DNA from: Promethearchaeota archaeon
GTDB lineage: Archaea; Asgardarchaeota; Lokiarchaeia; Sigyniarchaeales; SOKP01
Direction: 5' to 3'
Length of the DNA stretch: 20,690 nucleotides
NCBI GenBank assembly: GCA_048941265.1
Contig: JBHLNT010000067.1
Location: forward strand, 1 to 20,690
Positions 2,569 through 9,868 of the stretch are shown piece after piece. How positions within the stretch are numbered: the stretch's first letter is position 1; each line of letters begins with the position of its first letter. The translations under genes and the position numbers were made by a program. Under the pieces are notes generated by a model that ran no database searches, was not told where the DNA came from, and saw nothing but the letters and a program-made list of their open reading frames with translations.

Positions 2569-3324
2569 TTGATACAAATAACTTACATTCAAATTGACAA
2601 TTTCGGACCATTTACGGAAGAAATGGGTACTTACAGAGAGCATAAAATTCAAATTCTTCTCTCAGAGGTATTTATTTTCTTACAGAAATACTTTAATCGT
2701 TATGGAGGTCTTGTATTTTCTGCTTCAAAAGATAATATGATCGCTGTTTCAAATGGAATATCCATAAAACATCATCAATTTCTTATTAATAAATTAGAAA
2801 AAAAGTTTCCTATTACAGTCAGTATGGGAATTGGAACAGGAAATACTCCAATAAATGCACAAATTGAAGCATCGGAAGTATTAATTGCCAAAGGAAGTGC
2901 TCAATCTTCAAGAAAAAAAGTTTTAGCATATAATGGTCATAAATTACCAATAAAAAACAAAGTTAAAGTAGCTCATGTTGATATAAATTATTATACGAAA
3001 TTGGCTACAGATGTAAATCCATTCTATAAAAATTACGTTGATTTGAATAGGGGATATTTGACCTTAATGGAAAATTTTCAGAATATTGGTATACTTTGTT
3101 TTTTTAATGGAGGAGATAATTTTATTTGTGTTTGTCCTCTATCAATGGAACCTGATGAATTATTACCAACAATTAGATTATTTGAATTTAAACATAAACC
3201 ATGGAAGTTGAAAGTAGGGATTGGTGTTGGAAAAAATGTTTTAGAAGCAATATCTAAAGCAAATATTTGTTTAAAAGAAATAAGAGAGGGTCATAATTCA
3301 AAACAAATAAAGGTTTTAAATTAA
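2569..3324 (+). CDS. gch3: GTP cyclohydrolase III (IIa), ArfA
   Basis: Motifs IQIDNFGPFT, DNMIAV, GSAQ, AHVDIN, GGDNF and LKVGIG. Likely start is the in-frame TTG at 2569 (MIQIT...), with GTGAGGT (2554..2560) serving as RBS rather than as the start. Confidence 0.92.
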   Translation: MIQITYIQIDNFGPFTEEMGTYREHKIQILLSEVFIFLQKYFNRYGGLVFSASKDNMIAVSNGISIKHHQFLINKLEKKFPITVSMGIGTGNTPINAQIEASEVLIAKGSAQSSRKKVLAYNGHKLPIKNKVKVAHVDINYYTKLATDVNPFYKNYVDLNRGYLTLMENFQNIGILCFFNGGDNFICVCPLSMEPDELLPTIRLFEFKHKPWKLKVGIGVGKNVLEAISKANICLKEIREGHNSKQIKVLN

Positions 3325-3382
3325 CATTTTCTTATGATTCATACTTTTTTTTATTACAGACATTATAAATAATGATTATAAA

Positions 3383-4066
3383 ATGATTAATTTCGTTTTT
3401 ATACCGATTGGAAGTTATGAACAACATGGTCCTCATTTACCTCCTGAAACAGATTATTTGATTGCCAAAAGAATAGCAGAAAAAGTTGCTCCAGCATTTA
3501 AAGGTAAAATTATTGAGGGTATAAAGATCGGTATCTCTTCAGAACATGAAGAATTTATTAATACAAAATCAATTTCTAAGGTAGAATTTGAAAATCAAGT
3601 AAATAAACTTTTAAAAAATTTTTATGAAGAAACGAAGTTTTTTCTTATTAACGCTCATGGGGGAAACAATGATGCTTTATGTTCAATCAAAAGGCAATAT
3701 CAAGATAAACTTTTAGTCTTAAATACATTTTCTATAATTAAAAAAGACTTAATGAAAATAAGAACATCAAATATTGGTGGAATTTGTCATGCTGGAGAGT
3801 TTGAAACATCAATTATGATGTATCTATTTCCAAATAGTGTAAACATGATTGACCTCAAGAAAAGTGATATTAAATATGTTCCTTATCTTGATCCAAATTA
3901 TGAGTTCGAGAAACTAAAAAGATGGAAGACTAAAGATCTAAGTATCAGTGGGATATTAGGTGATCCATTTCACGCTTCAAGAGAAAAAGGAGAAATCTGG
4001 TTTAAATTATTAATTGAAAAAATAATCTCTTTAATTGAAGTATTTATTAATCAATATAAACTTTAA
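3383..4066 (+). CDS. arfB: Creatininase-family amidohydrolase, probably the FAPy deformylase ArfB
   Basis: Motifs GSYEQHGPHLP..TD, NAHGGN and HAGEFETS. It sits directly after gch3, whose product is the ArfB substrate; the specific function is inferred from context. Confidence 0.8.
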   Translation: MINFVFIPIGSYEQHGPHLPPETDYLIAKRIAEKVAPAFKGKIIEGIKIGISSEHEEFINTKSISKVEFENQVNKLLKNFYEETKFFLINAHGGNNDALCSIKRQYQDKLLVLNTFSIIKKDLMKIRTSNIGGICHAGEFETSIMMYLFPNSVNMIDLKKSDIKYVPYLDPNYEFEKLKRWKTKDLSISGILGDPFHASREKGEIWFKLLIEKIISLIEVFINQYKL

Positions 4067-4097
4067 ATGAATTATTTAGAATATTTCTAATTTTTTC

Positions 4098-4244
4098 TTA
4101 GAAAAAAGCATCCATTTTTTTAATACCTTTAATTTCATCAAATAAAATACCAAGGGCATCAAGAACCTGTTCTAAAGCAGATATAAGAAGTTCCTTATAC
4201 TTCTTAGAATCAATGTCTTGAAGTTTTGCGGGCTCGATTGTTTT
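4098..4244 (-). pseudogene. Displaced 3'-terminal fragment of a family B DNA polymerase gene (48 codons plus stop, no start)
   Basis: Translates KTIEPAKLQDIDSKKYKELLISALEQVLDALGILFDEIKGIKKMDAFF*. By hand, 24/38 residues are identical, ungapped, to PolB residues 953-990 (KAKELATLEDVDVKKYRELLQSALEQLMDALNISYDEI). Same strand as polB. Confidence 0.93.
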
Positions 4245-4248
4245 ATGA

Positions 4249-5049
4249 TTAGAATTCTGCTTTAAGTATATCTAGTTCGTTTTTATATTTCTTTACTCTT
4301 AAAGCACAATTTTTAGCGCCCAAATCATGTTTATGCGCACTTATCCATCCCCAGAACCTGGAAAAATCTAACTTTTTGTAATTTATCACTATTTCAGGAT
4401 GCACTTCTAAGGGGCTTAGAAATAAATCACCCCATACTTTCCAAAATACAGTAAATGCAAATTTTTTATATACTAAATTCTTGAAATGGTTAAAACAGTT
4501 TGGAAAAATTGCTTTGTATTGAGTGTCTATCTCAAAAATCACATTCATTATATTCTCTATACGTGGATATCTTTTCCTTATTTCCGAATCAACATCGCTG
4601 CATTTCGTAATATTGGGTATCAGTCCACAGGGAGATTTTCCCATAAACAAAAAATCCACATAAAGGGGATATGCCTTACATACTGAAGGTCGTAAAGAAT
4701 AGATGGAGCATTTTTTCTCTTGTAGATCATAAAAGATACACCATCCTTTTTTTGTTTTGATTTGATAGGTATGCACAAATTCATAGGGAAATGATTTAAG
4801 GAAATATGTTTCATAGGGAATAAATGACGGTTTCGATAGTTTATGGTTTGATTCGATAATCTTTTTTTCATCGTAGTGAACCGTGACCGATGTGGTGGGT
4901 GCTGTAGTGAACTTTCCTTTATAGTCATATTTATACAGTATTCCTTTTTTGTTGGCGTCGGTTATGTTCAACACTTTGCAGCATTTCCCGCACCGCTGGC
5001 AATGGAAAGTATATTCTTTTAAACTTAAAATATCTGGAATGAAGATCAC
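4249..5049 (-). CDS. YkgJ-family (CxxCxxCC) Zn/Fe-chelating cysteine-cluster protein
   Basis: N-terminal FHCQRCGKCC and central CIFYD..KKCSIYSLRPSVCKAYP. GTG start. Confidence 0.85.
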   Translation of the reverse strand: MIFIPDILSLKEYTFHCQRCGKCCKVLNITDANKKGILYKYDYKGKFTTAPTTSVTVHYDEKKIIESNHKLSKPSFIPYETYFLKSFPYEFVHTYQIKTKKGWCIFYDLQEKKCSIYSLRPSVCKAYPLYVDFLFMGKSPCGLIPNITKCSDVDSEIRKRYPRIENIMNVIFEIDTQYKAIFPNCFNHFKNLVYKKFAFTVFWKVWGDLFLSPLEVHPEIVINYKKLDFSRFWGWISAHKHDLGAKNCALRVKKYKNELDILKAEF

Positions 5050-5244
5050 TTGTAAATGAAGATAAAGATTCTAGAAACTTCAAAAAATGTAGTTCATCTT
5101 TATGGATTTAAAAGATAAGAGACCGTTAGTTTATACTCCATTAAGATGTTTTGAAGATTTTAAATAATAATTAGATTTGATAAATATTTATATAAAAGGG
5201 AATTTAGTGTATTTTATAGTTTCTTATATAAAGTATATGTTATA

Positions 5245-6684
5245 ATGACTAGGGAAAAAGAATTGTTTTGTTCTTCAAAAGGAAGGGGATCAGTTTATAA
5301 GTCATGCAATGCTTTAAATAAATTTAATCCCCCCAAAAAACCAGTATATTATTTAACAAGCGGTCTTGCTTTTGATGAGGAAATAATAGTCATTAATGAA
5401 AATAATTTAATTCATAAGGTTAAAATAGGGGATATAGAGGAATCATGGAGCAATTTAAGAATCTTAGTGATTAACAGAGAGGAAATGAATTTTGGACATA
5501 TTTATTTTCAACCAATTAGGAGATTTTCAAAAATATACGCTTCAGATTTGTTTAAAATAAGTCTAGCTGATGGAAGACAAATTATATGTGGTCCAAATCA
5601 AATCTTTCCTAAATTAGTACTACAAATTAACGTTAGAAGATATAATAATCCTGCAAATACGTGGTATATTGAGCATACTTTAGCTCATAATTTAAAAATA
5701 CGAGATAACCTTTTAGTCCTTCATAATATTCCTTTATCTTCAAATCCTCCAAAATGCATTTTTATTCCAAGTTTTCTTTATTGGGAGGACAAATGGATTG
5801 GAATAAAAAGGAATGAGTATGTAAAATTTTCTTATAGAAAAAATCAAAGAACTTCTGATCCTTTAATTAAACTAATTAATTCCAAATTTCAATATTCAAA
5901 GACGGCAAAAATGTATAGGGTAATCTGGGCAAATTTATCTAAAAATGAAAAAGATCTTATTGAAATTGAAGCAAAAAAAGGGCGTGTTGAAATTTTAATA
6001 AAAATTCATGGGAATGTAGGATTTTGGTATAACTCAGTATTCCCTCTAACAAATGACTTCTTTAAATATTTGGGTTGGTATACTGCAGAAGGGTCTTCAG
6101 ATAAAAATAGGATTACAATTACTCAATCAAAAGAACTTAAATTTGATAATTGGCAAGAAATTATTAATCTGCTCGATCAATTGAATTTTCCCTATACAGC
6201 AGATGAAAAAAAGACTATTAGGGTTAATTCAAATGTATTAACTTTGTTGACAATTCATCTATGCTCTACATTAGCCCAAAATAAGAAAATACCATTTGAA
6301 TTATTAACATATGACAGAGCTTACGCTTTTTTAAATTCTTATTACAAGGGTGATGGTGATTTATTACGTACCGGATTAAGGAAATTTACAACTGCTAGTC
6401 AACAATTAAAGAATGATCTAGTAAGTGTTCTAGGAGCAATCGGACAATTTTGCTCCATCCAGCATCCTAATTCATCCGACAATTGTTATCGAATAATCGA
6501 AACTGAAGGAAAACATTATAAAAGGAAATTCATGGGATTACTTCATTTCAACGGGATTACTCCAGTAAAAATTAAGTCAATTGAAAGAATTAGTTATAAT
6601 GATAATATCTTTAATATAATTACAGAAAATGGTTGGTTTGCCTCGACAAACGGAATACTTATTAGTGAAATTTCAAATTGCTGA
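5245..6684 (+). CDS. Free-standing intein-like protein: degenerate Hint domain plus a two-motif LAGLIDADG (DOD) homing endonuclease
   Basis: Block A-like GLAFDEEIIV, block B-like GRQIICGPNQIF, LAGLIDADG motifs YLGWYTAEG and FLNSYYKGDG, block D NKKIP, block H-like FTTASQQLKNDLVSVLGAIG, and blocks F/G VKIKSIERI..IFNI..NGILISEISNC*. No real exteins. Confidence 0.9.
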   Translation: MTREKELFCSSKGRGSVYKSCNALNKFNPPKKPVYYLTSGLAFDEEIIVINENNLIHKVKIGDIEESWSNLRILVINREEMNFGHIYFQPIRRFSKIYASDLFKISLADGRQIICGPNQIFPKLVLQINVRRYNNPANTWYIEHTLAHNLKIRDNLLVLHNIPLSSNPPKCIFIPSFLYWEDKWIGIKRNEYVKFSYRKNQRTSDPLIKLINSKFQYSKTAKMYRVIWANLSKNEKDLIEIEAKKGRVEILIKIHGNVGFWYNSVFPLTNDFFKYLGWYTAEGSSDKNRITITQSKELKFDNWQEIINLLDQLNFPYTADEKKTIRVNSNVLTLLTIHLCSTLAQNKKIPFELLTYDRAYAFLNSYYKGDGDLLRTGLRKFTTASQQLKNDLVSVLGAIGQFCSIQHPNSSDNCYRIIETEGKHYKRKFMGLLHFNGITPVKIKSIERISYNDNIFNIITENGWFASTNGILISEISNC

Positions 6685-6686
6685 AT

Positions 6687-9600
6687 TTAAAAAAAATCAT
6701 CAAAATCTTTAGTAACAGTCTTCTTTTCTTTTTTTTTTTCATATCTAAGTTGTAGAATTTCATCATAACTAATGTTTAATGCATCCATTAATTGTTCTAA
6801 TGCAGATTGCAGAAGTTCTCTATATTTTTTAACATCTACATCTTCAAGTGTTGCTAACTCCTTTGCTTTTGCTCCTAAACCATCCCTAATCTTAATTATA
6901 CTAATTGTTTCACCTTTTTGATATTCCTTTCCAGTTATTTTTTTCAATTCTTTTGCTACTCTAACATGCTGAGGAAGCACTTTATCATAAGAATTGAGTT
7001 TTTTTTGTAGAGTAATATTTATAGCATAGTCATCTAAATCGAAAGCATCTGGTTTCCCAATTTTTTTCCTATTTTCCTTTATAATCTCAATTATTGTTTC
7101 TCTTGCTTTTGAAAATTCCTCATCATTGGTTATTGTTTTTAATATTTCAATTAATTGATTAAAAACTTTTTTTATAAAGTCAGGAGTATTTTTCTTCTTC
7201 GCAACCAAACCCTTCATATCAATATATTTGGAATCCTTATAGATTCCTATATAATTCTTTTTTCTTTGGGAAAGTGCTAAAAATTGGTATATTTTTTCTT
7301 CTTCTAGATCAAGATCAAGCTCCTCTTTACTCCATTTAGAAAGTTTTTGCATTTGTGCCTGAGTAGGATTTGAGAGAAAAACACTATCTGTATCTCCATA
7401 TAGAACCTTTACACCAATCTCTTCTGATTTTTTGATTGTTTGCTTAATTGAATATTGCCCAATAGTAGTAGTACTTTCAGCAACAGGTAAACAAAACAAA
7501 GGGAAATTTAGTGAACCAAAAACTCCATAGCTTGAATTAATAAACACCTTTAGCGCTTGTTGAATGGTATAATAATAGCTCCGTTGCTTTTCTGATAAAT
7601 TTTTATCGCCTGATTTTGGCTTAAAATATTTCACTCTGATATCTCGGAAAAAACCGACTACATAGGCAAAGATGCCCATCTTATGAATGCATGTATGATA
7701 AGGGATAGCTTTTAAAATATTAGATTTACAGTCAGAATGAGGACATAAAACAGTTTCATATGAAAGATTATATTCTTTGATTATAGAGGGGTAAAGACTT
7801 GCGAAATCCATAACAACAACATTATAGTGAATCCCCTTTTTTGGCGATACAACATAAGCACCCTGAAAAGTCTTTCCCTCGATAATTGATTTAGAATATC
7901 CGCCTTCTTTCATCTCAGAAATTTCTGATCTCCTTGGGATAAGAAAATTTCTTCTACGATGTTCGAAGTAGAATATATTTTGTACCCATGTAGAAATTTG
8001 GCGACGCACCATTTCATGGATAGGTAATTTTGTCATTCGGCATAATAGGAGGATTAAATTCCAAACTAAAGAGTTATTAAACTGTGTTAATTCGAGAGTT
8101 AAAATAGAATCTTTTAAGTTATACCAAGATAGGATATTATATTCCATTTCATGGATTTCTTCTTCATGTTGATACTTCTCTTTTCCTAATAATGCATCGC
8201 TAATAGCATTTAGAGAACTACTCTCATAAGCCCCTCCGAATGCATAACCAGAAATACTTCTATTGAAGAAAAAGTTAAAGAGATCGATGTGAATTCCTTT
8301 CTTTAAATCACAGTCAGCTTTAGATAAGAATCCATAACCTCTCTTAACATGGATTGGATTAATATCTCTATGAATTCTTAATCTATCTGCTCTATGAGAC
8401 ATATAATTCAAATCAAAGTTATCCCCGTTAAATGTTATAACAATGGGATATTTCCACATGAGCCGAAATGTTTCAGTTAATAATACTTTTTCAGATTTAA
8501 AGAAGATAATTTCTGCATCAGATGGAAAATTTTTATGAAGATTCCCATATGTGAAACCTTCCCGTTCAAGAATATAGACTAATTTTAATCCGTCAGTTGC
8601 TACGAAAGATATACTAATAATTTCTTGTTTAGCTTCACGCGGATCTGGAATTCTGTAATCCTGCTGACCTAAATTAACTTCAATATCAATTGCGAGTCGC
8701 TTTAAATCAGGTATTGGAGTAAGAAAAATATCTAAGTATTTTTCAGAAAACTCTTGAATCTCATTGGATTCCTCTTTAAATAAATCTCGTAGTTCTTTTG
8801 CTATTTTTTTAGATTCTTCATCTGTCTTTTCGTAATTCATTTGAGTTATTCTGCCATTTTTTATGGAATAGATTAATCCTGGTATTAATTGTCTATCAAA
8901 AATATAATTCAAATGATATCTTATATCCGCCTCCCAAGCTTTTATTCCATTTTCTCCTAAAATGTTGCGAATATTAGTACCAGATCCTCCAATATTAGTA
9001 GGAGTTTTACCATAAATTTTTGTCATATCTATTTCTTTATCACTTAATAATTCTATTCGCTTAACTGGTTCAAACCTTTTAAATCCTTCATAATCCGTTA
9101 ATTTCTTAATATGCCTTGCTTCCCCAATTTTTTCTTGATAATTTAGTTTTTCTAAATCTTTTGTCGATTCTTTGCTTAAACAATAAGGCTCATGGTTTGT
9201 TGTATCAATCCAAATTTTTATCTCATCAGTTTCTAAATCATAAAATTTACAGTATGCTTTATTTTGAGTTCCATCATAATCAACATCAAGCAATAATCCT
9301 CTTTCTAAATTTTGAATAATTTCTCCCTTATTAATTAAATAACGGATATATGTTGATGTGACTGATTCTCTCGATATCTTTTCTAATTTAATATCTCCCT
9401 CTTTTAAACCGAATGGCTCGTTATTTCCTTTAAAAAATAGATCCTTAGGGATAGGAATTATCTCGGTTGGTGCCTTAATTTTTGCTTTTTTGAATTTTAT
9501 AATATCTTCTCCATATATTTGATCTTGAACAACTTCTACCTCTACTTCTTCCTCATCTTCAATTTCTTCCGGAATATCGAGTAATTCTTCTGCTTCCTCA

Positions 9601-9725
9601 TCTAAAATTTCTTCTTCATTTTCTTCTTCACTTATTTCTGATTTTGAAGAATCCACATATGAAAATAAGGACTTTTGTTTAAGATCTTCTTTTTTTTTCT
9701 TTTTTGGTTTTTTTTGAGGCGCCAC
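6687..9725 (-). CDS. polB1: Family B DNA polymerase, PolB1/Dpo1 type
   Basis: Exonuclease motifs AIDIEV, FNGDNFD and YNLKD. Polymerase motifs DFASLYPSII, KVFINSSYG, YGDTDS and KKNY. ISTWVQNIFYFEHRRRNFLIP resembles crenarchaeal Dpo1. No internal inteins. Confidence 0.97.
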   Translation of the reverse strand: MAPQKKPKKKKKEDLKQKSLFSYVDSSKSEISEEENEEEILDEEAEELLDIPEEIEDEEEVEVEVVQDQIYGEDIIKFKKAKIKAPTEIIPIPKDLFFKGNNEPFGLKEGDIKLEKISRESVTSTYIRYLINKGEIIQNLERGLLLDVDYDGTQNKAYCKFYDLETDEIKIWIDTTNHEPYCLSKESTKDLEKLNYQEKIGEARHIKKLTDYEGFKRFEPVKRIELLSDKEIDMTKIYGKTPTNIGGSGTNIRNILGENGIKAWEADIRYHLNYIFDRQLIPGLIYSIKNGRITQMNYEKTDEESKKIAKELRDLFKEESNEIQEFSEKYLDIFLTPIPDLKRLAIDIEVNLGQQDYRIPDPREAKQEIISISFVATDGLKLVYILEREGFTYGNLHKNFPSDAEIIFFKSEKVLLTETFRLMWKYPIVITFNGDNFDLNYMSHRADRLRIHRDINPIHVKRGYGFLSKADCDLKKGIHIDLFNFFFNRSISGYAFGGAYESSSLNAISDALLGKEKYQHEEEIHEMEYNILSWYNLKDSILTLELTQFNNSLVWNLILLLCRMTKLPIHEMVRRQISTWVQNIFYFEHRRRNFLIPRRSEISEMKEGGYSKSIIEGKTFQGAYVVSPKKGIHYNVVVMDFASLYPSIIKEYNLSYETVLCPHSDCKSNILKAIPYHTCIHKMGIFAYVVGFFRDIRVKYFKPKSGDKNLSEKQRSYYYTIQQALKVFINSSYGVFGSLNFPLFCLPVAESTTTIGQYSIKQTIKKSEEIGVKVLYGDTDSVFLSNPTQAQMQKLSKWSKEELDLDLEEEKIYQFLALSQRKKNYIGIYKDSKYIDMKGLVAKKKNTPDFIKKVFNQLIEILKTITNDEEFSKARETIIEIIKENRKKIGKPDAFDLDDYAINITLQKKLNSYDKVLPQHVRVAKELKKITGKEYQKGETISIIKIRDGLGAKAKELATLEDVDVKKYRELLQSALEQLMDALNISYDEILQLRYEKKKEKKTVTKDFDDFF

Positions 9726-9868
9726 TATAATAACCAGTAATTAATATTTAATTTAGTTTTTTCTAATAATAATTATTATAATTTCAATTATAATACCATC
9801 TATTACGAATTTAATATTTTAAAATCGTTATAAAGATTAAAAAAAATAGAGGATCATAAATTTTTTAT

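What the first reader, a model, noticed from the sequence alone, without database searches (positions are those of the whole stretch)
4098..6869. Candidate archaeal WHO-like homing element that swaps the 3' end of DNA polymerase B1
Seen in sequence: along the polB strand the order is intact polB1, an antisense intein-derived LAGLIDADG gene (2 bp between the two stops), a YkgJ gene, then a second, diverged polB C-terminus ending 31 bp from the convergent arfB stop. Removing 4245..6869 rebuilds an in-frame polB1 ending ...GIKKMDAFF* tail-to-tail with the rib operon, which looks like an empty ancestral locus. Established knowledge: yeast WHO elements (relatives of HO) pair a non-splicing intein-like endonuclease with a replacement 3' part of FBA1 and push the old 3' part downstream. 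Some fungal mitochondrial endonuclease elements (e.g. Allomyces atp6) behave similarly. Inference: this is a selfish element that stays harmless by replacing the gene tail instead of splicing, and it may carry a cleavage-resistant recoded target. I know of no described archaeal example.
Basis: partly seen in the sequence, partly recalled or inferred. Interest (0 to 1): 0.93.

Follow-up and report, generated by a model that had tools for sequence, protein, structure and literature searches.

The report
Archaeal homing element swapping polymerase tail
A selfish endonuclease gene descended from an intein sits behind the replicative DNA polymerase gene of an Asgard archaeon, brings its own foreign version of the polymerase's 3' end and leaves the original end as a dead copy downstream, a design so far described only in yeast and fungal mitochondria.

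Summary
Window layout: intact polB (6687-9725, -), 2 bp, a convergent 479-aa intein-derived LAGLIDADG gene (5245-6684, +), a YkgJ-like gene (4249-5049, -), then a 48-codon orphan polB tail (4098-4244, -) 31 bp from arfB.

Relatives include an empty locus (G008), a second occupied one (G003) and a decayed one (G001). The endonuclease abuts the polB 3' end in 8 of 8 loci with visible context, and 6 of these show an orphan tail.

Trees give the predicted discordance. Orphans group with host-lineage native tails (support 96-99). In-use tails form foreign clades A and B spanning two genera (97, 100). AU tests reject placing them with the host (p 6e-4 to 3e-50).

The endonuclease is 44-46% identical to true polB motif-B inteins. 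It has Gly in place of Cys1, keeps both catalytic acidic residues, and has dN/dS of 0.25-0.38.

New points: the foreign part is about 150-190 codons, not about 60. All 8 polB genes next to an endonuclease gene carry Ser/Ala instead of Gly at the ancestral intein insertion point, against 5 of 40 native genes. The cut site is therefore probably motif B.

It is not a WHO family member but an independent archaeal analogue. No published archaeal case turned up in four searches.

The parts
4098..4244 (-). Orphan native-type polB tail: 48 codons plus stop, ending ...GIKKMDAFF*. No start codon; its 5' end is cut off by the YkgJ gene.
   Evidence: Translation. 92% and 90% identical to the in-use tails of G001 and G008. 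Groups with G001/G008 native tails and the G003 orphan, support 96-97.
4249..5049 (-). Cargo gene: 266-aa YkgJ-like CxxCxxCC (putative Zn/Fe-chelating) protein.
   Evidence: Pfam PF03692, E 3.5e-11. Among 41 genomes searched, the only close orthologue is in the other occupied locus G003 (78%); all other hits are <=38% identical and lie elsewhere. dN/dS 0.18 against G003.
5050..5244 (.). AT-rich spacer between the divergent YkgJ and endonuclease genes. It holds a TTTATATA stretch about 50 nt upstream of the endonuclease ATG, which looks like an archaeal TATA box.
   Evidence: Read from the sequence. A resemblance only, not tested.
5245..6684 (+). Free-standing, intein-derived LAGLIDADG homing endonuclease gene (479 aa), convergent with polB; 2 bp separate the two stops.
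   Evidence: Weak Pfam hits to LAGLIDADG_3 and Intein_splicing. 44-46% identical to true polB motif-B inteins. Closest solved structure is PI-PkoII, E 4e-9. Gly replaces Cys1; E282 and D370 of the two LAGLIDADG motifs are invariant in 12 of 12 aligned sequences. dN/dS 0.25-0.38. Single copy in the genome.
6687..7172 (-). In-use polB 3' part that travels with the element (type A): residues ~852-1012, ending ...DEILQLRYEKKKEKKTVTKDFDDFF*.
   Evidence: Clade A with the tails of G061, G072, G056, G104 and G073 from another genus, support 97. AU test rejects placing it with host sisters, p 6e-4. Identity profiles.
7173..7298 (-). Possible upstream extension of the imported segment, up to the nearly invariant ELDLDLEEEKTYQFLALS.RKKNY block.
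   Evidence: In five other occupied lineages the switch from host-like to element-like falls at alignment codons ~815-825. In G000 itself the signal is clear only from ~857.
7530..7535 (-). Motif-B codons Ser-Ser (residues 731-732). The ancestral intein insertion point lies between them. This is the candidate cleavage site and self-immunity substitution (native Gly to Ser).
   Evidence: Translation. Intein-bearing alleles read ...KVFING|C.... Non-Gly in 8 of 8 polB genes next to an endonuclease gene, against 5 of 40 native genes. Phylogenetically independent pairs: about 6 the same way, 0 opposite, p about 0.03.
6687..9725 (-). Host gene: intact family-B replicative DNA polymerase (1012 aa), a chimera of a host-lineage body and an imported 3' part.
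   Evidence: Pfam DNA_pol_B and exonuclease domains. Body tree places it with G001, G003 and G008, support 99.
3383..4066 (+). In the empty allele it lies tail-to-tail with polB.
   Evidence: Pfam PF02633. G008 aligns without a break across arfB, the spacer and the polB tail.

Best explanation
This is a homing genetic element built like the WHO elements of yeast and the mobile ORFs (mORFs) of fungal mitochondria, but it arose independently in Promethearchaeota (Asgard archaea).

Its core is a free-standing LAGLIDADG endonuclease gene that descends from the intein inserted in motif B of polB. The protein has lost the splicing nucleophile and has no exteins. The gene sits convergently, directly behind the polB stop codon.

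Linked to it are a foreign, resistant version of the polB 3' part, which keeps the polymerase intact, and, beyond variable cargo (here YkgJ), the displaced native 3' end as a decaying orphan.

Inferred mechanism: the endonuclease cuts polB alleles that lack the element. The break is repaired from an occupied allele, using the polB body as the left homology arm and the orphan tail plus downstream flank as the right arm. This copies the resistant 3' part, the endonuclease gene and the cargo into the recipient.

My committed guess for the cut site is the ancestral intein insertion point in motif B (about 55%). The Gly-to-Ser/Ala change at that point would give self-immunity. Under this view the last ~150-190 codons look foreign because they are tightly linked to the endonuclease gene, while sequence between them and motif B has been recombined back to host type. 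The alternative is a cut near the 5' border of the imported part (about 30%).

Shown: the architecture, its recurrence, empty and decayed alleles, discordant phylogenies, descent from an intein, conserved catalytic residues, and purifying selection. Inferred: cleavage, the site cut, and present-day mobility.
For: Architecture and recurrence:
- The endonuclease gene is convergent with and abuts the polB 3' end in 8 of 8 loci where context is visible: G000, G003, G061, G072, G106, L103, L104, L106.
- A native-type orphan tail lies beyond it in 6 of these 8. G061 has none within 9 kb, and the L106 contig ends too early.

Occupancy states:
- Empty allele in G008 with uninterrupted arfB-polB synteny.
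- Decayed element in G001: an 88-bp endonuclease fragment followed by a 14-codon tail relic.
- Recoded tail plus orphan but no endonuclease gene in G056 and G104.

Phylogeny:
- Body tree (46 sequences): occupied polB genes scatter among host lineages, support 97-100.
- Tail tree (54 sequences, including 6 orphans): clade A 97 and clade B 100, each spanning genera g1 and g11. Orphans group with host natives at 96-99 for three of them and 78-85 for two; the sixth, G106's, was not tested for clade support.
- AU tests reject placing in-use tails with host sisters: p 6e-6, 3e-50, 2e-5, 6e-4.

The endonuclease:
- 44-46% identical to inteins sitting at KVFING|C...HN|SYG in polB.
- The free-standing forms are a 100%-supported clade.
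- Cys1 is Gly, and both LAGLIDADG acidic residues are invariant.
- dN/dS 0.25-0.38.

Candidate cut site:
- Residue before the intein insertion point is non-Gly in 8 of 8 polB genes next to an endonuclease gene and in 10 of 11 with a recoded tail, against 5 of 40 natives.
- 7 independent pairs: about 6 the same way, 0 opposite.
- The two polB genes whose endonuclease gene is lost or decayed (G056, G001) have Gly.
- In another family, G034 pairs a mini-intein at this site with a convergent endonuclease-like ORF behind polB.

Other:
- No integrase or att-like repeats; the nearest tRNA is 6.7 kb beyond the endonuclease gene.
- The assembly is confirmed.
Against: - No cleavage or transfer has been observed. 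No contig in the four runs laid joins across the element, so no co-occurring empty allele of this species was seen (contigs can miss rare variants).
- Orphans start at different places (47 to ~165 codons from the stop) and none reaches motif B, which is ~281 codons from the stop. They therefore do not begin at the cut site I favour, as WHO fragments do.
- A host-like island (alignment codons ~780-805) lies between the motif-B patch and the imported tail in G061, G072 and G003. A single continuous conversion tract does not predict this.
- Tail type (A or B) does not follow the endonuclease tree. G000 (A) and G003 (B) have sister endonucleases, so tail and endonuclease have been reshuffled.
- G056 and G104 keep a recoded tail and an orphan with two unrelated genes and no endonuclease, so not every such cassette is now driven by an endonuclease.
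- Clade A+B as a whole has only 51% support, and long branches could inflate clustering.
- The 736 association gives p about 0.03 from 7 pairs, and I noticed it in the data rather than predicting it.
Confidence: 0.78

Rival explanations
1. Fossil element. The cassette was mobile in the past, but in this lineage it is now a vertically inherited relic. The endonuclease is either inactive or kept for some host purpose, so there is no present homing.
For: - G000, G003 and the G001 remnant share the same position, and G000 and G003 share the same YkgJ cargo. Their orphans follow the body tree. This fits one old acquisition before these species split.
- No empty allele of this species appears in the runs laid.
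- The N-terminal 40 and C-terminal 39 residues of the endonuclease evolve at dN/dS of about 1.1-1.2.
Against: - The whole ORF is intact in 7 of the 8 loci where a full-length copy of the gene can be read (broken only in L106), with dN/dS 0.25-0.38 and invariant catalytic residues.
- Tail clades cross genus borders (G003 with G106/L104; G000 with five g11 genomes). This requires transfers after those genera diverged.
- The in-use tails of G000 and G003 differ (A versus B) although their endonuclease genes are sisters. So exchange continued after the shared acquisition.
Confidence: 0.12
2. Integration hotspot that is not driven by the endonuclease. Some other mechanism inserts cassettes into the polB 3' end together with a replacement gene end, as integrases do at tRNA genes. 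Candidates are a site-specific recombinase acting in trans, or plain homologous recombination of islands flanked by polB sequence. On this view the endonuclease is one passenger among several.
For: - Cargo between the recoded tail and the orphan varies: YkgJ (G000, G003), four unknown ORFs (G106), a 363-aa ORF (L104).
- G056 and G104 carry a two-gene pair with no endonuclease at all. Atlas leads liken the pair to MJECL33 and MJECL32.
Against: - No integrase or transposase family was found in any ORF scanned, and there are no att-like direct repeats.
- The endonuclease is the only gene shared by the cassettes. It always takes the same position and orientation against the polB stop, with a gap of 2-60 bp.
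- It descends from an intein of this very gene, and polB genes next to it carry a substitution exactly at that intein's insertion point.
Confidence: 0.05
3. In-place duplication. The polB 3' end was duplicated locally, and the in-use copy then diverged quickly in each lineage. The apparent foreign clades would be long-branch or convergent artefacts, with no horizontal transfer.
For: In-use tails sit on long branches, and clade A+B has only 51% support. The extreme C-terminus is unalignable between tail types.
Against: - Specific shared derived strings occur in different genera. Type B...EQF..A...IDI.S.ET..F...DGF*, is in G003 (g1) and in G106, L104 and L106 (g11). Type A...EEI.L.GY.KKKE..., is in five g11 genomes.
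- At the nucleotide level G003 becomes closest to G106 from about codon 817 onward.
- AU tests reject host placement.
Confidence: 0.03

Closest known systems
WHO elements of Torulaspora/Lachancea yeasts (relatives of HO), host gene FBA1. Sources: passages of eLife 2020, PMC7282813; abstract, Introduction and Discussion of bioRxiv 10.64898/2026.08.13.744650.
   Same: - An intein-derived LAGLIDADG endonuclease without exteins, encoded just downstream of an essential, conserved host gene.
- The element includes a replacement 3' part of that gene.
- Old 3' parts remain downstream as fragments.
- The 5' and 3' parts of the host gene have different phylogenies.
- Decayed copies occur.
- Several host-gene 3' types coexist, which fits an arms race.
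   Different: - Independent origin, from an archaeal polB motif-B intein rather than the fungal VMA1 intein lineage.
- No C-terminal zinc finger. Two relatives (P0005, P0010) carry an unrelated 240-aa N-terminal extension with CxxC pairs.
- The endonuclease gene is antisense to the host gene.
- One element per locus rather than clusters of up to 9.
- Orphans do not start at a common point.
- Extra cargo genes are carried.
- The host is a prokaryote without meiosis.
- Cleavage is not yet shown.
Mobile endonuclease ORFs (mORFs) of fungal mitochondria that carry a foreign C-terminal gene part: Allomyces atp6; Glomus atp6, atp9, cox2, nad3. Source: passages of PLoS One 2013, PMC3630166.
   Same: - An endonuclease ORF with an inserted foreign C-terminal part in use, and the native C-terminal part displaced downstream.
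- The native part matches close relatives, while the inserted part is divergent and looks horizontally acquired.
   Different: - The mitochondrial ORFs are on the same strand as the host gene and often in phase with it; this one is a separate antisense gene.
- They are not intein-derived.
- This case lies in a cellular chromosome of an archaeon and carries additional cargo.
polB motif-B inteins of archaea. The closest solved relative by sequence is PI-PkoII of Thermococcus kodakarensis (2cw7).
   Same: Homologous protein with Hint and LAGLIDADG domains. Both LAGLIDADG motifs and their acidic residues are conserved. It is associated with the same host gene.
   Different: Not inserted in frame, no exteins, Cys1 replaced by Gly, terminal His-Asn not conserved. 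It therefore cannot splice and needs a different way of leaving the host gene intact.
Free-standing homing endonucleases of T-even phages ('intronless homing', seg/mob genes).
   Same: A free-standing endonuclease gene beside the gene it is thought to cut. Immunity comes from a substitution in the resident target. Spread is by co-conversion of the DNA between the cut and the endonuclease gene. This applies if motif B is the target here.
   Different: The phage genes belong to the GIY-YIG or HNH families and are not intein-derived. To my knowledge no duplicated gene end or orphan is part of those elements.

Membership tests
WHO element family (yeast) | LAGLIDADG endonuclease related to inteins but lacking exteins, encoded immediately downstream of the host gene | tested here: met
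   a separate ORF 2 bp from the polB stop, 44-46% identical to polB inteins, with no flanking extein.
WHO element family (yeast) | [quoted passage not shown] | tested here: not met
   Pfam finds only LAGLIDADG_3 and Intein_splicing. The protein ends 8-10 residues after the last Hint block.
WHO element family (yeast) | Element carries a replacement 3' part of the host gene, and old 3' parts remain downstream | tested here: met
WHO element family (yeast) | Endonuclease cleaves unoccupied alleles of the host gene but not the allele next to it | not testable with these tools
   Indirect only: a Gly-to-Ser/Ala change at the ancestral intein site in 8 of 8 polB genes next to an endonuclease gene.
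WHO element family (yeast) | Common descent with WHO/HO/VDE of budding yeasts | tested here: not met
   Nearest relatives are Promethearchaeota polB inteins and PI-PkoII. It is therefore an analogue, not a member.
Fungal mitochondrial mORF gene hybrids | Endonuclease ORF plus a foreign C-terminal part in use, with the native C-terminal part displaced downstream and matching close relatives | tested here: met
   The layout differs (antisense, not fused) and the genome is not organellar.
Intein (polB motif-B allele) | In-frame insertion in the host protein, with a Cys/Ser/Thr nucleophile at position 1 and His-Asn followed by Cys/Ser/Thr at the C-terminal junction | tested here: not met
   Separate antisense ORF. 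Gly aligns with Cys1 in 10 of 10 free-standing forms, and the C-termini vary (ISEISNC*, VHDSI*...).
LAGLIDADG homing endonuclease (double-motif) | Two LAGLIDADG motifs, each ending in a conserved acidic residue | tested here: met
   LGWYTAEGS (E282) and YYKGDGD (D370) are invariant in 12 of 12 aligned sequences. They align with the same motifs of PI-PkoII.
Integrase-borne island inserted in a gene's 3' end | Tyrosine or serine recombinase gene and att direct repeats at the borders | tested here: not met
   No recombinase family in the ORFs scanned. No att-like repeats in 3900-7200.

The most novel reading that the evidence does not exclude
Asgard archaea host a whole family of WHO-like homing elements that evolved from a polB intein, in parallel with HO and WHO evolving from the VMA1 intein in yeast.

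The endonuclease still cuts the old intein site in motif B. Instead of splicing, the element moves by dragging along a resistant polB 3' part, and it uses the displaced native tail as its right-hand homology arm.

Several tail types (A, B) and mosaic endonucleases would reflect an ongoing arms race. That race would repeatedly rewrite the C-terminal, PCNA-box-like end of the replicative polymerase. It would also turn the site into a landing pad for cargo, including possible defence genes.
Probability: 0.45. Interest if true: 0.88.

Novelty: new variant of a known kind. Interest (0 to 1): 0.8.

Why it matters
Homing elements are usually described as two kinds, introns and inteins. The recent WHO papers add a third kind, 'replace the gene end instead of splicing', and call it rare and yeast-specific. 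The related mitochondrial mORFs are also fungal.

Finding the same solution in archaeal chromosomes, built independently from an intein of the host gene itself, has three consequences:

- The strategy is a recurrent evolutionary outcome, and one way for an intein to escape its dependence on splicing.
- The family offers a natural series of stages for study: full intein, mini-intein plus free-standing endonuclease, free-standing endonuclease with a recoded tail, decayed element, resistant empty allele.
- The element acts on the replicative polymerase of the closest prokaryotic relatives of eukaryotes, changing that enzyme's C-terminal end. This implies gene flow between genera.

In practical terms, it offers new LAGLIDADG enzymes whose target can be guessed and tested. 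It also warns that polB 3' ends are unreliable phylogenetic markers in these lineages.

Tried and rejected
- **A second site resembling motif B.** I tested whether the imported segment's 5' border holds a sequence like the motif-B intein site, which would explain ectopic homing. The best ungapped matches of a 42-nt motif-B site to the polB 3' 700 nt in four native genes were 15-17 of 24. That is no better than shuffled sites (fraction of shuffles at or above the observed score: 0.07-0.99). Rejected.
- **The last ~10 codons as the recoded target.** It is weakened because the imported segment extends ~150-190 codons upstream and no site-specific signal separates occupied from native genes at the extreme end beyond common descent.
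- **Orphan reaching motif B.** The longest orphan (G106) shows homology only from ~143-165 codons before the stop.
- **Remnants behind native genes that have non-Gly at the motif-B site** (G063, G070, G102, G021, G005): none found at E <= 0.05.
- **Second polB tail in G018** (contig C84). It is nearly identical to the end of the full gene on C161 and lies at a contig end. This is probably assembly redundancy, not an orphan.
- **Cargo function.** Pfam and PADLOC gave nothing above threshold for the G106 cargo or the G056/G104 pair. Atlas look-alikes (MJECL32/33, weak PD-(D/E)xK-like folds with TM < 0.4) are leads only.
- **Empty alleles of this species in public runs.** No contig joins across the element. 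Contigs drop rare variants, so this is not evidence of absence.
- **Literature.** Searches returned no archaeal or bacterial chromosomal element of this design.

Full report
**What is in the window.** The window is a whole 20.7-kb contig of a ~5-Mb, ~30% G+C genome. Record titles of the nearest relatives name Promethearchaeota/Promethearchaeia MAGs.

On the polB strand the order is:
- polB, 6687-9725, 1012 aa, with DNA_pol_B and exonuclease domains;
- 2 bp;
- a convergent 479-aa ORF (5245-6684) with weak LAGLIDADG_3 and Intein_splicing matches;
- a 195-bp AT-rich spacer;
- a 266-aa CxxCxxCC (YkgJ-type) gene (4249-5049);
- a frame ending ...GIKKMDAFF* (4098-4244).

The last frame ends 31 bp from the stop of a creatininase-fold gene that closes a ribH / GTP-cyclohydrolase-III cluster. 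The orphan and the in-use tail share 25 of 47 residues. Window positions 4244 and 6869 are homologous, and both kept stretches are multiples of three.

The only polB paralogue in the genome is 24% identical. Contigs of three samples from two studies bridge both inner junctions without a difference.

**Relatives show every stage.** I searched 41 related genomes with polB and compared loci by tblastn and blastn.
- G008 has the empty arrangement: rib-arfB, 50 bp, then polB-TldD. Its polB tail is 90% identical to the window's orphan.
- G003 has the same occupied arrangement: orphan 79%, YkgJ 77%, endonuclease 77% identical.
- G001 has a native tail in use. This is followed by an 88-bp internal fragment of the endonuclease gene (antisense) and then a 14-codon degenerate copy of the tail end. 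It is a decayed element.
- G001 and G003 also have an MFS transporter gene between arfB and polB. This fits the body tree ((G003,G001),G000),G008.

**The endonuclease family.** A protein search gave 15 hits. Ten of the other hits are free-standing proteins of 356-690 aa at 55-77% identity. Three are partial PolB proteins at 41-49% identity in which the homologue is a true intein at ...ALKVFING|CLPY...IVHN|SYGVFGS..., that is motif B.

Across the order, 10 of 154 genomes have a match at E <= 1e-10.
- Five hold the free-standing form: G000, G003, G061, G072, G106.
- G038, G142, G150 and G011 hold 44-48%-identical copies inside open frames of 1034-1423 aa.
- I confirmed the FING|C junction in G038, G142 and G034, but not in G150 or G011.

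In an alignment of 12 sequences, the free-standing forms have Gly where the intein has Cys1, and their C-termini vary. E282 and D370 of the two LAGLIDADG motifs are invariant. These motifs align with those of PI-PkoII, the only solved structure hit (E 4e-9). The free-standing forms are a 100%-supported clade. dN/dS is 0.25-0.38 in four comparisons, against 0.07 for the polB body.

**Linkage to polB ends.** Counting the five genomes and three metagenome contigs, the gene is convergent with and abuts the polB stop in 8 of 8 loci with visible context. L105 is too short to judge.

A native-type orphan tail lies beyond it in 6 of 8:

| Locus | Orphan length | Position / cargo |
|---|---|---|
| G000 | 48 codons | after YkgJ |
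| G003 | 60 codons | after YkgJ |
| G072 | 94 codons | the endonuclease has a 240-aa N-terminal extension |
| L103 | 89 codons | directly next to the endonuclease; the minimal form |
| L104 | 48 codons | after a 363-aa ORF |
| G106 | ~145-165 codons, with a frameshift | after four unknown ORFs |

G061 has no orphan, and L106 ends too early to tell.

A search of genus g11 with the polB C-terminal 370 residues hit 48 of 54 genomes. By the extent of the match, recoded tails occur in six: G061, G072, G106, G056, G104, G073. G056 and G104 have a recoded tail and an orphan (127 codons with a stop; about 116 codons with several stops). Between them lie two same-strand genes of 373 and 336 aa instead of an endonuclease. 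The G073 contig ends at the polB stop.

**Tail types.** Native tails across the order end ...EEIKGIKKMDAFF*. In-use tails of occupied loci fall into two types:
- Type A: G000 ...DEILQLRYEKKKEKKTVTKDFDDFF*; L103; and five g11 genomes with ...EEI.L.GY.KKKE...LF*.
- Type B: G003, G106, L104, L106, with ...EQF..A...IDI.S.ET..F...DGF[SI]*.

All keep a hydrophobic/aromatic spacing like the native end. I take this to be a PCNA-interaction box; that reading is recalled, not tested.

Numbering here and below is that of my alignment, which is the residue number in the 1012-aa ORF plus 5.

The body tree used codons 330-800 (46 sequences, 1410 nt). Occupied genes scatter with their host lineages: the four g1 genes 99; G003+G001 100; G056+G074 97; G072 with G083/G092/G099/G089 100; G061 with G087/G082 100.

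The tail tree used codons 858-993 (54 sequences including 6 orphans, 414 columns).
- Clade A 97, its g11 part 100, clade B 100, A+B 51.
- Orphans of G000 and G003 group with G001 (96) and with G008 (97).
- The G056 orphan groups with G074 (99), the G072 orphan with its host group (78), and the G104 orphan with G069 (85).

AU tests reject holding in-use tails with their body sisters: G072 p 6e-6, G056 3e-50, G061 2e-5, G000+G003 6e-4. The groups came from the body tree, but I had already seen the tail tree when I named them.

Sequences left out: g11 genomes that received no locus (18 of 48 with hits). For the body tree, rows with more than 15% gaps were also dropped.

**How far the imported part reaches.** Sliding comparisons with each lineage's sisters show a switch from host-like to element-like. 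It falls at about codons 815-825 in G072, G061, G104, G056 and G003, and is clear in G000 from about 857. That border sits at the end of the almost invariant ELDLDLEEEKTYQFLALS.RKKNY block, so it may mark where recombination between diverged alleles can resolve rather than a cut.

**Where the enzyme probably cuts.** At the residue just before the ancestral intein insertion point (KVFIN-G|S-YG):
- The 40 native genes have Gly in 35. The exceptions are G063/G070/G102, G021 and G005.
- The eight aligned occupied genes have Ser or Ala in seven. The exception is G056, which has lost the endonuclease gene.
- L103, L104 and L106 also have Ala.

That gives 8 of 8 polB genes next to an endonuclease gene, and 10 of 11 with a recoded tail. 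The sister natives of each occupied lineage have Gly. On a tree built without these columns there are 7 independent pairs: about 6 go the same way, none the opposite, p about 0.03. G001, with the decayed element, has Gly. A linked Thr-to-Ile change 21 codons downstream accompanies Ala in G061, G072, G104, G106, L103, L104 and L106, and in four of the five native exceptions.

In a different family, G034 has a mini-intein at this very site plus a convergent 1021-aa ORF behind polB whose last 436 residues are endonuclease-like (42% identical).

I therefore favour the old intein site as the target, with the point substitution as self-immunity. The native exceptions would be immunised alleles produced by short conversion tracts. 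Against this view:
- No orphan reaches motif B.
- A host-like island at about codons 780-805 separates the motif-B patch from the imported tail in three lineages. I can only explain this by later recombination, which I have not shown.

**Modularity.** Tail type does not follow the endonuclease tree. G000 (A) and G003 (B) have sister endonucleases, and G106/L104 (B) are sister to L103 (A). Between G000 and G003 the endonuclease gene is a mosaic:
- 90-96% nucleotide identity at 5630-6230;
- about 65% at 5330-5630, which encodes the N-terminal Hint part;
- dN/dS of about 1.1-1.2 at both protein ends.

This fits repeated exchange and possibly an arms race like the one described for WHO elements (bioRxiv 10.64898/2026.08.13.744650; abstract, Introduction and Discussion read). 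It is not proof.

**Comparison with known systems.** WHO elements are defined by four features (sources as above, plus passages of PMC7282813):
- an intein-like LAGLIDADG endonuclease with a zinc finger and no exteins;
- a replacement 3' half of FBA1;
- leftover 3' fragments downstream;
- discordant phylogenies of the two gene halves.

The archaeal element shares the architecture and the phylogenetic signature. It lacks the zinc finger and is not related by descent. Fungal mitochondrial mORFs (passages of PMC3630166) share the foreign-C-terminus / native-C-terminus design but are same-strand, often fused, and not intein-derived.

No integrase, att repeat or nearby tRNA supports an integrase model. 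Four full-text searches found no archaeal or bacterial chromosomal example.

**Verdict.** The finding is real, recurrent and correctly interpreted in outline: an archaeal, intein-derived, WHO/mORF-like homing element on polB. Its activity and cut site remain to be shown.

Noticed in passing
L064 (G034:C119) 2808-6518 (+) and 6548-9613 (-): In a genome of another family, polB carries a mini-intein (no endonuclease domain) at the motif-B site. A convergent 1021-aa ORF starts 30 bp behind the polB stop. Its C-terminal 436 residues are a Hint+LAGLIDADG module 42% identical to the window's protein, without Cys1. Its N-terminal ~580 residues match no Pfam family. This could be an intermediate stage, with the endonuclease moved out of the intein.
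   Followed up: partly
L097 (G056) 6823-8956 (-) and L098 (G104) 3234-5367 (+): Two nearly identical adjacent genes (373 and 336 aa) occupy the place of the endonuclease between a type-A polB tail and an orphan tail. Atlas look-alikes are the MJECL33 and MJECL32 families, with weak PD-(D/E)xK-like fold hits. Function is unknown; possibly a defence or nuclease pair.
   Followed up: partly
L034 (G001) 9687-9820: Decayed element. After the native polB stop come an 88-bp antisense fragment of the endonuclease gene and then a 14-codon degenerate copy of the polB end (FDAIKGIRKMDVYL*). How the in-use tail became native again is unexplained; gene conversion from the orphan or from an empty allele are both possible.
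   Followed up: partly
P0005 (G072, L051:6272-8329) and P0010: Two free-standing endonucleases carry a ~240-aa N-terminal extension that begins with two CxxC pairs (zinc-ribbon-like by eye, no Pfam hit). This recalls the zinc-finger fusion of WHO/HO, but it is at the other end of the protein and unrelated.
   Followed up: no
window 9654-9677 (-), polB residues 17-24: The lysine-rich N-terminal extension of polB holds QKSLFSYV, which resembles a PCNA-interaction box (motif recalled from memory). Similar strings occur at the N-termini of G001, G056 and G104 polB. A second PCNA box could make changes to the C-terminal one tolerable.
   Followed up: no
polB alignment codons ~780-805 (window ~7325-7400) in G061, G072, G003: A host-like island lies between an element-like patch around motif B and the element-like 3' part, with similar borders in three independent lineages. 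Unexplained.
   Followed up: partly
window 5330-6230: Between G000 and G003, nucleotide identity in the endonuclease gene jumps from about 65% (5330-5630, N-terminal Hint part) to 90-96% (5630-6230). dS also differs several-fold between segments. This suggests recombination within the gene, or fast evolution of a possible DNA-recognition part.
   Followed up: partly
L034 7965-9377 (-), L035 3533-4897 (-): An MFS transporter gene lies between arfB and polB (or the orphan) in G001 and G003, but not in G000 or G008. This is an indel exactly in the 31-50-bp spacer.
   Followed up: no
L041 (G018:C84 end) and L042 (G018:C161 start): Two nearly identical polB 3' ends (one residue different in 86) sit at contig ends of one MAG. 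This is probably assembly redundancy or strain mixture, not an orphan tail.
   Followed up: partly
window 7509-7536, table 7: Contigs of related organisms in the same samples match the window up to the motif-B codons and then run on with the native Gly-Ser-Tyr-Gly reading. Native-type polB alleles of relatives therefore coexist in these sediments.
   Followed up: no
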